Part shown: positions 8,842-26,782 of the stretch, in pieces
Layout of the letters: each line of letters opens with the position of its first letter
How positions within the stretch are numbered: the first letter of the stretch is position 1
Sequence record: OQ174503.1
Length of the DNA: 64,000 nucleotides
DNA from: Escherichia phage REP4
Reading direction: 5' to 3' (one strand)
Notes under the pieces: generated by a model
The model's database searches: none
What the model was told of the DNA's origin: nothing
What the model saw: the letters and a program-made list of their open reading frames with translations, nothing else
Translations under genes and position numbers: made by a program

Positions 8842-8867
8842 CGTTTTGTGAAAAAAAAAAAAATTTG

Positions 8868-8898
8868 AAATAAAAAAAAGGGAGCCCGAAGGCTCCCT
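8868..8898 (-). terminator. Intrinsic terminator after the nucleotidyltransferase gene
   Basis: Hairpin GGGAGCC-CGAA-GGCTCCC followed by a U-tract on the minus strand. Confidence 0.7.
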
Positions 8899-12443: not shown

Positions 12444-12469
12444 ATGAAAAAAGTCTCCCGAAGGAGACT
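12444..12469 (-). terminator. Intrinsic terminator
   Basis: Hairpin GTCTCC-TTCG-GGAGAC plus U-tract (minus sense). Confidence 0.65.
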
Positions 12470-12473
12470 AATG

Positions 12474-12860
12474 TTATTCGAGGGAAAGAAGATATTTACT
12501 CTGGTAAAACATTCCAGTAATATCATCTATCGTGCTTTGAATGGCTGGAGGCATTTCTTTGTAAATGCTATTAGATTGGTCTAGTATGCGATCAATCATT
12601 TTAATTGTGTCGGTAGGAAGTTTACTAGCATCTGGAATTGAAGGTGTGTATTTTCTACCAGAATACCCCAAATACTGCTCACCAAATTTATCAATCAAAT
12701 CTGGCAACTCAGAGAAAATAAAATCGTATGCCTTGTGTCTAGCATAACTTTTAGTTTCAAAATGCGCAGAATGAAAATAAGCTTGCGCAGCCATTAATAA
12801 ACCTAAGTATTCATCTGCCTTTGAAGGTTTTCCACTTTGTGAAAAGTCGCTGAATTTCAT
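12474..12860 (-). CDS. Hypothetical protein (position of T4 rI.1)
   Basis: 128-aa ORF; its ATG overlaps the stop of the out-of-frame rI C-terminal segment. Confidence 0.55.
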
Positions 12861-13151
12861 TCAGTCTCCAATTTAATGTTCATAATTCTAGCGTATGATT
12901 GTGCCATCTCCGCGCCTCGTTCTATACATTCAAAATCAGAAGAACACGGGTCATTTTTTATAAGTCGTTCGCATAAAACTATAGAACTGTTCAGATGATT
13001 CTACGCTTTTATTTTCAAAAAGCATATAAACGTGTCTAATACCAGATTCCATAAATTTATCAAAATGAGGATCGACATTCGCTTCAATTGGCGGAGATAA
13101 AGCAAACGCTAATCCTAGCATGGCAAATAGTGCCGTTGCTTTTAAGGCCAT
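12857..13151 (-). pseudogene. rI: Lysis-inhibition regulator rI interrupted by a +1 frameshift in an A6 run (reads ...TYKK-stop; remaining 31 codons [31 protein letters not shown] continue in the next frame)
   Basis: Track ORF 12951..13151 gives a 66-aa signal-anchor protein MALKATALFAMLGL...RTTYKK; out-of-frame continuation read directly from sequence; summed length matches the 97-aa T4 RI. Confidence 0.7.
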
Positions 13152-13163
13152 AAAGGCCTCCTA

Positions 13164-13376
13164 TCATTTTTGTCCTGTATTTACTTTATGCCGATGCACG
13201 GCCTTAACTTTATCAAGGTATTTTTCAAAATTTCGCAATCTAGTATAGTCTGCCGGAGATTGGTTAAGTGATACTTCTCGACGCAAAGCTGAAATGATAT
13301 TTCCAACTTCCCTACGAATTTCATCTAATTGAAGAACAGTAAGATTGCGAAGTTGCTTTTCAGTTAATTGTAGCAT
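13164..13376 (-). CDS. Small hypothetical protein
   Basis: 70-aa ORF. Confidence 0.45.
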
Positions 13377-14195: not shown

Positions 14196-14361
14196 ATATT
14201 AATTTCCAGAAGTTTTAAAATAATTCGCTTTTGCTTAAATATTTCCATAGTTAAATGATCAGTATCTTTTTGACCAATTCCGATGGCAAAACCTTTATTA
14301 ACAGCGAGTTCAATTAAATTATCAAGCTCACGTAACACTTCATATTGTAACTCAGAACTAT

Positions 14362-14568
14362 TCATTTTGGTTTACCTTCTTTAACAAAATCGGGATAAGG
14401 ATAAAATCCTGAATAAAATCCTTCACCTTTATGATTAATGCATCCTTTATTAGAGCAATAGCACCAATAATCGAAATCACAAGCCATTTCATCATTGCAT
14501 AAAGCAAAAACAACTGGCCATTTACACTTTTCACAATGTGCATTTTTAAGAATGCTAGTTTGGCTCAT
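14362..14568 (-). CDS. Small Cys-rich (zinc-binding-like) protein
   Basis: Track ORF 14362..14589 trimmed to internal Met MSQTSILK; eight Cys (CEKC...C...C..C.C...C). Confidence 0.45.
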   Translation of the reverse strand: MSQTSILKNAHCEKCKWPVVFALCNDEMACDFDYWCYCSNKGCINHKGEGFYSGFYPYPDFVKEGKPK

Positions 14569-25761: not shown

Positions 25762-25837
25762 TGGTCGAGGCAGTAGGGATCGAACCTACGACCTAGGACT
25801 TAGAAGGTCCTTGCTCTTCCTTCTGAGCTATGCCCCG
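25762..25837 (-). tRNA. tRNA-Arg (anticodon UCU), CCA encoded
   Basis: Manual fold: acceptor CGGGGCA/TGCCTCG, anticodon loop CTTCTAA, T-loop GGTTCGATCC. Confidence 0.85.
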
Positions 25838-25841
25838 TAAT

Positions 25842-25917
25842 TGGGGTGACCGATGGGAGTCGAACCCATGACTACGAGAATCACAATCTCGAGTTCTACC
25901 AACTGAACTACGGCCAC
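25842..25917 (-). tRNA. tRNA-His (anticodon GUG), discriminator C73, CCA encoded
   Basis: Manual fold: acceptor GTGGCCG/CGGTCAC, anticodon loop TTGTGAT, 3' end ...CACCCCA as in bacterial tRNA-His. Confidence 0.8.
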
Positions 25918-26030
25918 ATTAATACCTACTCCAACAATCAAGATGTCTTCACACGAAATTAAGAGAAGAGTGATCAGTTCAACCCTATAATCGCGTCAAG
26001 TAGATATTAATGTGACAGTTGTCACAAATT

Positions 26031-26105
26031 TGGCGGACGTGATAGGATTCGAACCTATAACCAATCGCTTAACAGGCGATCGCTCTGCCATTGAGCTACA
26101 CATCC
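26031..26105 (-). tRNA. tRNA-Asn (anticodon GUU), CCA encoded
   Basis: Manual fold: acceptor GGATGTG/CACGTCC, anticodon loop CTGTTAA. Confidence 0.8.
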
Positions 26106-26109
26106 AAAT

Positions 26110-26196
26110 TGGTGGGGAGTGATGGAGTCGAACCACCCGAGTCGCAATGACAATGGATTTACAGTCCACACCGCTACCTCTACGGGATAACTCCCC
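26110..26196 (-). tRNA. tRNA-Tyr (anticodon GUA), long variable arm, CCA encoded
   Basis: Manual fold: acceptor GGGGAGT/ACTCCCC, anticodon loop CTGTAAA, 87 nt. Confidence 0.8.
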
Positions 26197-26209
26197 TTAA
26201 TTCTTAATT

Positions 26210-26284
26210 TGGTGGCCCTGGGTGGAATTGAACCACCATCTGGCGATTATGAGTCGCTTGCTTGAACCTTCCAGCTACAGGGCC
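26210..26284 (-). tRNA. tRNA with CAU anticodon (T4-type tRNA-Ile reading AUA, or Met)
   Basis: Manual fold: acceptor GGCCCTG/CAGGGCC, anticodon loop CTCATAA. Confidence 0.8.
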
Positions 26285-26285
26285 T

Positions 26286-26361
26286 TGGTGCTGATTGACG
26301 GAATCGAACCGCCGACCTTCTCATTACAAGTGAGTTGCTCTACCTACTGAGCTAAATCAGC
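26286..26361 (-). tRNA. tRNA-Thr (anticodon UGU)
   Basis: Manual fold: acceptor GCTGATT/AATCAGC, anticodon loop CTTGTAA. Confidence 0.8.
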
Positions 26362-26366
26362 AAAAC

Positions 26367-26456
26367 TGGCGGAGGCGATAGGATTTGAACCTATGAGTCG
26401 CCGGAGCGACTGCCGGTTTTCAAGACCGGTGCATTAAACCACTCTGCCACGCCTCC
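26367..26456 (-). tRNA. tRNA-Ser (anticodon UGA), long variable arm
   Basis: Manual fold: acceptor GGAGGCG/CGCCTCC, anticodon loop CTTGAAA; directly follows tRNA-Pro (dimeric precursor arrangement as in T4). Confidence 0.8.
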
Positions 26457-26457
26457 A

Positions 26458-26532
26458 GTCTCCATACAAGGATTTGAACCTTGGACCTCCTGATCCCAAA
26501 TCAGGCGCTCTACCAAACTGAGCTACACGGAG
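26458..26532 (-). tRNA. tRNA-Pro (anticodon UGG), 3' CCA not fully encoded
   Basis: Manual fold: acceptor CTCCGTG/TATGGAG, anticodon loop TTTGGGA; 2-nt spacer to tRNA-Ser. Confidence 0.8.
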
Positions 26533-26542
26533 TAAATTAAAT

Positions 26543-26616
<74 letters not shown>

Positions 26617-26621
26617 AAATT

Positions 26622-26708
26622 TGGTGCGAGAAGTGGGACTCGAACCCACAAGGAAATCATTCCGCAGCATTTTAAGTGCTGTGCCTTTACCAATTTGACC
26701 ATTCTCGC
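26622..26708 (-). tRNA. tRNA-Leu (anticodon UAA), long variable arm
   Basis: Manual fold: acceptor GCGAGAA/TTCTCGC, anticodon loop CTTAAAA. Confidence 0.8.
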
Positions 26709-26709
26709 G

Positions 26710-26782
26710 CTGGGAATAAAGGACTCGAACCTTTGCATCCTGGAATCAAAATCCAGTGCCTTACCAACTTGGCTAATTCCCA
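26710..26782 (-). tRNA. tRNA-Gln (anticodon UUG), U1 start, CCA not encoded; forms a dimer with tRNA-Leu
   Basis: Manual fold: acceptor TGGGAAT/ATTCCCA, anticodon loop TTTTGAT. Confidence 0.8.

What the first reader, a model, noticed from the sequence alone, without database searches (positions are those of the whole stretch)
12857..13151. rI lysis-inhibition gene disrupted by a single-base insertion in a poly-A run
The ORF encodes the RI signal-anchor N-terminus and stops as ...RTTYKK. The next 31 codons ([31 protein letters not shown]) continue in the adjacent frame and end in an ATGA overlap with the next gene. Six A's are present where five would give an intact 97-aa RI. This is either a genuine rapid-lysis r mutant or a homopolymer sequencing error.
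Basis: partly seen in the sequence, partly recalled or inferred. Interest (0 to 1): 0.6.

Follow-up and report, generated by a model that had tools for sequence, protein, structure and literature searches.

The report
Frameshifted rI antiholin gene, T4-like phage
The lysis-inhibition gene rI of this T4-like phage (Escherichia phage REP4) is broken by one extra A in a short A-run, a classic "rapid-lysis" type of mutation at a tract that has also slipped in other sequenced phages; it is probably real but is ordinary biology.

Summary
On the minus strand, rI (12857-13151) is 295 nt instead of 294. A run of six A (+ strand T6, 12954-12959) replaces the A5 of T4, giving a 66-aa product ending YKK*. 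The remaining 31 codons are intact in the +1 frame and end in the ATGA overlap with rI.-1. The window is Escherichia phage REP4, whose GenBank record annotates this 66-aa protein. Of 502 GenBank relatives, 500 have A5, none has A6, and two (RB55/RB59, otherwise identical to T4 here) have A4 in the same tract. A raw-read (Logan) assembly of a different phage, one SNP from vB_EcoM_11B_SA_NWU, also has A6. Other rI-null alleles (A3>A2, T5>T4, a ~376-nt deletion) occur in other assemblies. Across the 64-kb window, this is the only isolated frame-breaking indel inside a conserved gene, among 345 homopolymer runs of 5 or more. That argues against a generally error-prone assembly. The best reading is a genuine polymerase-slippage frameshift giving an rI-null (rapid-lysis) phage, probably selected during plaque purification or propagation. 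A sequencing error cannot be excluded without reads. Programmed recoding is not supported. The truncation removes helix 3 and the conserved Cys pair but keeps all known holin-contact residues. This is a known kind of event and of low interest.

The parts
12951..13151 (-). Truncated rI ORF: 66 codons plus TGA. It encodes the signal peptide (1-24), helix 1 and helix 2 of antiholin RI, and ends ...TTYKK*.
   Evidence: Pfam PF24205 at 51.5 bits on profile positions 1-65 of 96. Exact match to WBY53229.1, 'lysis inhibition [Escherichia phage REP4]'.
12954..12959 (-). The A6 homopolymer (T6 on the + strand). Relatives have A5, and the extra base shifts the frame.
   Evidence: Census of 502 GenBank relatives: A5 in 500, A4 in 2, A6 and A7 in none.
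12857..12952 (-). Orphaned 3' part of rI in the +1 frame: 31 intact codons (DPCSS...LETE) plus TGA, encoding the Cys69/Cys75 loop and helix 3.
   Evidence: Pfam profile positions 67-93. 100% identical to residues 67-97 of the crystallised T4 RI. Helix 72-89 in the AF2 model, which matches 6PSK_R.
12474..12860 (-). rI.-1 homologue (DUF5856, 128 aa), intact. Its ATG overlaps the normal rI stop (ATGA) and it has its own GGAG 5 nt upstream of the ATG.
   Evidence: Its sequence is the representative of a cluster seen on 1000 or more contigs.
12452..12469 (-). Terminator-like hairpin plus T-run just after rI.-1, the likely end of the rI/rI.-1 transcription unit.
   Evidence: G50 annotates a terminator at the same place.
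13164..13376 (-). rI.1 homologue (70 aa), intact, immediately upstream of rI.
   Evidence: Same position and length as T4 rI.1.

Best explanation
This is a genuine +1 frameshift in the rI antiholin gene of Escherichia phage REP4. It most likely arose by DNA-polymerase slippage on the A5 tract (A5 to A6) and was enriched during plaque purification or propagation. Loss of RI abolishes lysis inhibition and gives larger, sharper 'r' plaques. Normally RI is exported, its signal peptide is cut after Ala24, and the three-helix periplasmic domain binds the periplasmic domain of holin T to delay hole formation after superinfection. Here translation stops at codon 67, so the product lacks helix 3 (about 72-89) and the conserved Cys69/Cys75 pair. 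It is expected to misfold or be degraded, so the phage should lyse on schedule whether or not superinfection occurs. Shown: the insertion, its uniqueness among relatives, recurrence of +/-1 alleles in the same tract, and what the truncation removes. Inferred: that the base is really in the phage DNA, that the truncated protein is inactive, and that selection in the laboratory enriched it.
For: (1) There is a single extra A and the gene is otherwise intact. The 31 downstream codons have no stop and encode a sequence identical to T4 RI, so the event is recent. (2) It is the only isolated non-3n indel inside a conserved CDS across 64 kb compared with G50. The other 1-2-nt indels are intergenic, compensated pairs, or lie in divergent patches. 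The window has 345 runs of 5 or more, so a single random homopolymer miscall would hit this run about 0.3% of the time. (3) The same tract slipped independently elsewhere. A6 occurs in the Logan assembly of SRR23924988 on a different haplotype: 8 SNPs within rI, including SNPs 4-5 nt upstream and about 10 nt downstream of the run. That contig is one SNP in 3.7 kb from OR062527, which has A5. A4 occurs in RB55/RB59, which are identical to T4 over 1251 nt otherwise. (4) Other rI-null alleles are present in public assemblies: A3>A2, T5>T4, and a ~376-nt rI/rI.-1 deletion that cannot be a homopolymer artefact. (5) r mutants arise at 10^-3 to 10^-4 and make larger plaques (PMC6832632). A-runs in T-even phages are demonstrated slippage hotspots, and an rIIA A-run insertion reverted about 10,000x more often than a SNP mutant (bioRxiv 10.1101/2025.10.21.683753). 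(6) The full-length model is a three-helix domain matching 6PSK_R (TM 0.83). The truncated model drops from pTM 0.59 to 0.28.
Against: No reads of REP4 could be examined, so a consensus error at this one run is not excluded. The platform used for REP4 is unknown to me. For the 11B-like phage, the deposited genome (A5) and the Logan assembly (A6) disagree. That could reflect stock heterogeneity, but equally an ambiguity at this site in the read data, and I could not confirm that SRR23924988 belongs to that project. RB55/RB59 may come from a homopolymer-error-prone platform. All residues shown by mutagenesis to matter for holin binding (F30, M34, Y42, S53/E54, F56, Y57) are retained, and G79A and Y86A/L in the lost part had no effect (PMC11413866). 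Loss of function is therefore inferred, not shown. AF2 confidence is not a stability measure.
Confidence: 0.68

Rival explanations
1. This is a sequencing or assembly artefact. The phage DNA has A5 and an intact 97-aa RI, and the extra A is a homopolymer miscall in the consensus.
For: The difference is a single base in a homopolymer, the commonest error class for several platforms. 500 of 502 relatives have A5. For a second phage, the deposited genome has A5 while an automated raw-read assembly has A6, so calls at this site can differ between pipelines. Three further 1-nt homopolymer differences from G50 lie in non-coding DNA (23617, 24500, 25983).
Against: No other gene in 64 kb is frameshifted, although there are 345 runs of 5 or more and 52 of 6 or more, including an A13. 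An error-prone consensus should break more genes. The chance that a lone random error lands in this tract is about 1/345. The tract also shows -1 and +1 alleles in unrelated records and lies in a gene whose loss is visibly selected. A5/A6 is short enough to be called reliably by Illumina and by polished long-read consensus. This last point rests on general knowledge.
Confidence: 0.25
2. This is a functional switch. Either the A tract is a contingency (phase-variation) locus that toggles lysis inhibition reversibly in natural populations, or full-length RI is still made from the A6 allele by +1 ribosomal frameshifting at AAA-UGA-C or by transcriptional slippage.
For: +1 and -1 alleles occur in the same tract in three independent lineages among about 505 genomes. 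A-runs of 6 or more in T2/T4, including one in rIIA, behave as reversible hypermutable loci. The A6 allele should revert to A5 more readily than a point mutant. The stop codon directly follows the run, a context formally similar to the prfB shift site.
Against: A6 is absent from 502 GenBank relatives, IMG/VR, the metagenome collection and the GTDB genome collection, so it is not a maintained state. There is no Shine-Dalgarno-like stimulator upstream of the run. tRNA-Lys would have to re-pair on AAU, and A6 is short of the runs known to give efficient transcriptional slippage. These last two points rest on general knowledge. A 77%-identical RI homologue has TAT AAA AGC AAC at the site, so the tract is not conserved. 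A5 is below the run length of 6 or more used to define phage contingency loci.
Confidence: 0.07

Closest known systems
T4 antiholin RI (gene rI; Pfam PF24205; PDB 6PSK, 6PX4, 6PXE, 6PSH)
   Same: Same gene at the same locus (tk - rI.1 - rI - rI.-1). The repaired protein is 100% identical to crystallised T4 RI over residues 25-97. It has the same IEA|N signal-peptidase site and the same ATGA overlap with rI.-1.
   Different: One extra A after codon 64 gives N66K followed by a stop. The product has 66 aa instead of 97 and lacks helix 3 and both cysteines. Four substitutions in the signal peptide relative to T4 (S15A, V17A, S21P and neighbours) are shared with many relatives such as sb3.
Classical T-even r (rapid-lysis) mutants in rI (Hershey 1946; Paddison et al. 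1998; Burch et al. 2011)
   Same: A null allele of rI, expected to abolish lysis inhibition on all hosts and give large sharp plaques. Such mutants arise spontaneously at 10^-3 to 10^-4 (PMC6832632).
   Different: The phenotype of REP4 was not tested here. I could not read Burch et al. 2011 (not held), so I cannot say whether this exact A5 tract is one of their listed hotspots.
Streisinger-type homopolymer frameshifts and phage 'contingency loci' (Gomez, Barrick & Waters 2025 preprint)
   Same: A +/-1 change in a mononucleotide A run inside a non-essential, conditionally useful T-even gene. The rIIA A6 run behaves the same way.
   Different: The wild-type run here is A5, below their threshold of 6 or more. 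Reversibility and an elevated rate were not measured for this tract.
rI of Enterobacteria phages RB55 and RB59 (KM607002, KM607003)
   Same: A frameshift in the identical tract of the identical gene, annotated as a shortened 'lysis inhibition regulator'.
   Different: The direction is opposite (A4, -1). The product is 75 aa with a 10-residue out-of-frame tail (MTRALLILNV), and the background is T4 itself.

Membership tests
T4-like antiholin RI (Pfam PF24205) | Sequence match to the family profile above the curated threshold | tested here: met
   The 66-aa ORF scores 51.5 bits (cut-off 27) on profile positions 1-65. The repaired 97-aa protein scores 82.2 bits on positions 1-93.
T4-like antiholin RI (Pfam PF24205) | Full-length product of about 97 aa covering the whole periplasmic three-helix domain (residues 25-97) | tested here: not met
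   There is a stop at codon 67. Helix 3 and Cys69/Cys75 are encoded only in the +1 frame. The locus is an rI gene, but as written it does not encode a complete RI.
T4-like antiholin RI (Pfam PF24205) | N-terminal Sec signal peptide with an IEA|N cleavage site | tested here: met
   The sequence ...LSPPIEA|NVDPHF... is present. The site was defined experimentally for T4 RI (PMC8385771). Cleavage in REP4 itself was not tested.
T4-like antiholin RI (Pfam PF24205) | Holin-contact 'interface 1' residues F30, M34, Y42, S53, E54, F56, Y57 | tested here: met
   All seven are present in the 66-aa product, compared with the mutagenesis table in PMC11413866.
T4-like antiholin RI (Pfam PF24205) | Conserved genomic context tk - rI.1 - rI - rI.-1 with an ATGA overlap | tested here: met
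r (rapid-lysis) mutant | Loss of lysis inhibition: large sharp plaques and no delay of lysis after superinfection | not testable with these tools
   This needs plaque morphology and lysis curves for REP4.
r (rapid-lysis) mutant | The mutation is present in the phage DNA and not only in the assembly | not testable with these tools
   REP4 reads could not be identified. Logan contigs sharing a REP4 protein come from other phages and do not reach rI.
Phage contingency locus (hypermutable SSR) | Mononucleotide repeat of 6 or more in the wild-type allele | tested here: not met
   The wild-type tract is A5 in 500 of 502 relatives. The threshold is from the preprint.
Phage contingency locus (hypermutable SSR) | Elevated, reversible +/-1 mutation rate at the tract | tested here: inconclusive
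   Three independent lineages carry +/-1 alleles, but no rates or reversion data exist, and selection for the r phenotype could explain the recurrence.
Programmed +1 ribosomal frameshift (prfB-like) | Conserved shift site with an upstream SD-like stimulator, kept across relatives | tested here: not met
   No relative has the A6-UGA configuration, and there is no SD-like sequence upstream of the run.

The most novel reading that the evidence does not exclude
The A5 tract at codons 65-66 of rI may be a natural two-way slippage switch. Tequatrovirus populations would then continually throw off LIN-negative (A4 or A6) variants that revert easily, a bet-hedging device for lysis timing. Alternatively, or in addition, the 66-aa product, which keeps every known holin-contact residue, may retain partial or altered antiholin activity and not be a null.
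Probability: 0.1. Interest if true: 0.55.

Novelty: already known. Interest (0 to 1): 0.2.

Why it matters
There are three practical consequences. First, REP4 as sequenced is probably a rapid-lysis variant. Its burst size, plaque morphology and behaviour at high phage density would then differ from its wild-type relatives, which matters if it is used for therapy or biocontrol. Second, annotation pipelines label the 66-aa (REP4) and 75-aa (RB55/RB59) fragments simply as 'lysis inhibition' proteins, hiding that the gene is broken. Third, finding +1 and -1 alleles in one A5 tract, plus three other rI-null alleles in public assemblies, shows that loss of rI is a common domestication artefact of T4-like phage stocks. 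It also marks this tract as a place to check in any new Tequatrovirus genome. None of this changes the understanding of lysis inhibition.

Tried and rejected
(1) Exact-pattern scans of IMG/VR using the window's own flanks gave 0 hits for both A6 and A5. This was uninformative because the window carries private SNPs near the run. I repeated the scans with degenerate flanks: A6 gave 0 and A5 gave 5. (2) A 61-mer 'distant' BLAST could not separate alleles across all 502 records. I replaced it with a megablast design that seeds only on the chosen run length. (3) Burch et al. 2011, the rI mutation spectrum, is not held by DOI or PMC id, so I make no claim about their hotspots. (4) I tried to find REP4's own reads through a REP4-specific protein. 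The Logan contigs returned (SRR33249075/6) are other mosaic phages and do not reach rI. (5) The paper on vB_EcoM_11B_SA_NWU lists no SRA run, so SRR23924988 could not be tied to that project. It does state Illumina NextSeq 2x150 and SPAdes for those phages. (6) The 90%-identity cluster holding the 66-aa protein has an unrelated 173-aa representative (BLASTP E = 14), so I treated the cluster membership as a database quirk. (7) Programmed frameshifting was considered and rejected for lack of conservation and of a stimulator. (8) search for related loci in IMG/VR returned only the same five intact loci, so it gave no wider census.

Full report
WHAT IS THERE. The region lies on the minus strand of a Tequatrovirus (T4-like) genome. 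The ORF 12951..13151 (-) encodes 66 residues, MALKATALFAMLGLAFALSPPIEANVDPHFDKFMESGIRHVYMLFENKSVESSEQFYSFMRTTYKK, followed by TGA. The next frame continues from 12952 to 12857 as [31 protein letters not shown]. Its stop overlaps the start codon of the downstream gene 12474..12860 (-) as ATGA. The segment is 295 nt, whereas T4, vB_EcoM_G50 and Shigella phage sb3 have 294. The only indel in a four-way alignment is one extra A in TAT-AAAAA(A)-TGA. On the + strand the run is T6 at 12954-12959. Pfam's antiholin family PF24205 matches the 66-aa ORF on profile positions 1-65 and the 31-codon continuation on positions 67-93. The repaired 97-aa protein scores 82 bits and is 100% identical to the crystallised T4 RI domain, residues 25-97 of 6PSK/6PX4/6PXE/6PSH. 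The neighbours are tk, rI.1 (70 aa) and rI.-1 (DUF5856, 128 aa), as in T4. A terminator-like hairpin follows rI.-1.

WHOSE GENOME IT IS. The closest record in the GenBank phage collection is G50, at 97.6% over 20 kb. No record is identical. The 66-aa product is exactly WBY53229.1, 'lysis inhibition [Escherichia phage REP4]', on a 166,772-bp contig. Two variable proteins of the window are exactly WBY53211.1 and WBY53213.1 of REP4, and the latter is known only from REP4. REP4 groups with G50 in a published terminase tree (PMC13072308). The window is therefore REP4, which is not part of the searchable phage collection.

IS A 66-aa RI NORMAL? It is not. I built a megablast query from 20-nt flanks in all 16 common SNP combinations around the run. 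An A5 record can share at most 25 exact bases with the A6 query, below the 28-base word size, so it cannot seed. The A6 query hit 0 of the 502 records that contain rI. The matched A5 control hit 500. An A4+A7 query hit the remaining two, Enterobacteria phages RB55 and RB59, in the A4 block. Scans with degenerate flanks found no A6 in IMG/VR, where the A5 control found 5, nor in the metagenome collection or the GTDB genome collection.

THE TRACT HAS SLIPPED ELSEWHERE. RB55 and RB59 are identical to T4 over 1251 nt around rI except for the loss of one A in this tract. Their records annotate a 228-nt rI encoding ...TTYKMTRALLILNV*. The exact 66-aa protein also occurs on a Logan contig assembled from SRA run SRR23924988. 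That contig is not REP4: it is 97.1% identical to the window and differs at 8 sites within rI. Two of those sites lie 4-5 nt upstream and about 10 nt downstream of the run, AGA..ACC..TGC against CGA..ACT..TGT. The contig equals GenBank OR062527 (vB_EcoM_11B_SA_NWU) except for one SNP and the extra A, and the deposited genome has A5 and an intact rI. Transfer of A6 between the two backgrounds would need a recombination patch of less than about 20 bp. Independent origin, or an independent call, is therefore the simpler reading. This makes three independent +/-1 alleles at one A5 tract among roughly 505 genomes.

OTHER BROKEN rI GENES. The protein search with the 66-aa query returned several short or chimeric RI products. 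At DNA level, ERR11456635 has A3>A2 at nt 94-96. SRR7892450 has T5>T4 at nt 131-135. SRR31364082, together with an NCBI 'Shigella sonnei' contig of 166,862 bp, has a ~376-nt deletion joining RI residue 33 to RI.-1 at a shared DKF motif. The deletion cannot be a homopolymer miscall, so rI-null phages really do get sequenced.

REAL MUTATION OR ERROR? REP4 reads could not be located, so I used indirect evidence. I listed every indel between the window and G50 over all 64 kb. The rI insertion is the only isolated non-3n indel inside a conserved CDS. The others are intergenic (7349, 8858, 8878, 23617, 24500, 25983), compensated pairs a few bases apart (2130/2139, 6360/6373, 8825/8835, 59208/59211), or in-frame. 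The window contains 345 homopolymer runs of 5 or more and 52 of 6 or more, including an A13. An error-prone consensus should have broken more genes, and one random error would hit this run about 0.3% of the time. By contrast, r mutants arise at 10^-3 to 10^-4 and make larger, clearer plaques (PMC6832632). A-runs in T2/T4 are demonstrated slippage hotspots, and an engineered +A in an rIIA A-run reverted about 10,000-fold more often than a SNP mutant (preprint 10.1101/2025.10.21.683753). I put a genuine mutation at about 0.68, an artefact at about 0.25 and a functional switch or recoding at about 0.07. The disagreement between the Logan assembly and the GenBank record for the 11B-like phage cuts both ways, pointing either to stock heterogeneity or to site-specific ambiguity. 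It is the main reason I do not go higher.

WHAT THE TRUNCATION DOES. RI is exported and its signal peptide is cleaved after Ala24. The mature domain binds the periplasmic domain of holin T. Mutagenesis shows that only 'interface 1' matters, with F30, M34, Y42, S53/E54, F56 and Y57 the critical residues (PMC11413866). An AlphaFold2 model of full-length RI has helices at 28-44, 54-66 and 72-89 and matches 6PSK chain R with TM 0.83. The stop at codon 67 therefore removes helix 3, the conserved Cys69/Cys75 pair, G79 and Y86, but keeps every interface-1 residue. A two-helix remnant of a small three-helix domain is expected to be unstable. The truncated model loses confidence, with pTM 0.28 against 0.59 and no residue at pLDDT of 90 or more, but that is weak evidence. 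G79A and Y86A/L did not affect function. Loss of function is thus a well-grounded inference and not a demonstration, and residual activity is the basis of my 'novel case'. rI.-1 has its own GGAG 5 nt upstream of its ATG, so it can probably still be translated even though ribosomes now terminate 93 nt upstream. Any loss of translational coupling was not tested.

RECODING AND CONTINGENCY READINGS. Restoring the frame needs a +1 shift at AAA-UGA-C or loss of one A in the mRNA. Nothing supports a programmed event. The A6 configuration is absent from all relatives, and there is no SD-like element upstream. In a 77%-identical RI homologue the site reads TAT AAA AGC AAC, so the tract itself is not conserved. 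The tract is shorter than the threshold of 6 or more used for phage contingency loci. Recurrent +/-1 alleles are as well explained by ordinary slippage plus visible selection for r plaques.

VERDICT. It is a textbook kind of mutation in a textbook gene, so novelty is 'already known' and interest is low. The useful by-products are the census of the tract (A5 in 500, A4 in 2, A6 in 0 GenBank records, plus two further A6 cases: REP4 itself, which is in GenBank but not in the collection searched, and one raw-read assembly) and the observation that broken rI genes are annotated as if intact.

Noticed in passing
window 8851-8863 and 8872-8879 (+ strand): An A13 run and an A8 run, the two longest homopolymers in the window. 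They lie in an intergenic stretch next to a GGGAGCCCGAAG terminator-like hairpin. G50 has much shorter runs there, with 6-nt and 2-nt differences. This could be a hypervariable non-coding tract or a place where the assembly is least reliable.
   Followed up: no
L017/L018 (KM607002 RB55 and KM607003 RB59), locus 436-663: Both records are identical to T4 over 1251 nt except for A5>A4 in the same rI tract. rI is annotated as a 75-aa 'lysis inhibition regulator membrane protein' with no pseudogene flag.
   Followed up: yes
L004 (Logan SRR23924988_4805) vs L013 (OR062527.1 vB_EcoM_11B_SA_NWU): The raw-read assembly and the deposited genome differ by one SNP (L004 position 1304, G/A) and by A6 against A5 in rI. 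The stock may be mixed, the run may come from a sibling isolate, or the deposited sequence may have been corrected.
   Followed up: partly
L016 (Logan SRR31364082_3) 1501-1809; also an NCBI 'Shigella sonnei' contig of 166,862 bp: A ~376-nt deletion fuses RI residues 1-33 to the C-terminal part of RI.-1 at a shared Asp-Lys-Phe (GATAAATT-) microhomology, giving a 102-aa chimera named 'DUF5856 family protein'. A T4-like phage genome is evidently deposited inside a Shigella assembly.
   Followed up: partly
L014 (ERR11456635_12194) and L015 (SRR7892450_977), locus 1501-1650: Two further rI frameshift alleles in other T4-like phages: A3>A2 at nt 94-96 and T5>T4 at nt 131-135. Each gives a 49-aa product.
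   Followed up: yes
window 23617, 24500, 25983: Three single-base homopolymer length differences from G50 in non-coding DNA: upstream of a small ORF, in a terminator, and between tRNA-His and tRNA-Asn. They may be natural variation or miscalls, and they are the only other candidates for homopolymer error in the window.
   Followed up: no
window 14196-14564: About 370 nt between tk.1-like genes with no BLASTN match to G50, a gap between HSPs. The Logan 11B-like contig also differs in gene content here. This is a small mosaic or indel hotspot downstream of tk.
   Followed up: no
window 25762-26782 (-): A cluster of 11 tRNA genes (Arg, His, Asn, Tyr, Met, Thr, Ser, Pro, Gly, Leu, Gln), the same set as G50 and larger than T4's eight.
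   Followed up: no
protein collection, cluster of P0014: The 66-aa RI is filed in a 560-member 90%-identity cluster whose representative and listed members are an unrelated 173-aa Tequatrovirus protein (BLASTP E = 14). This looks like a clustering or indexing quirk and not biology.
   Followed up: yes
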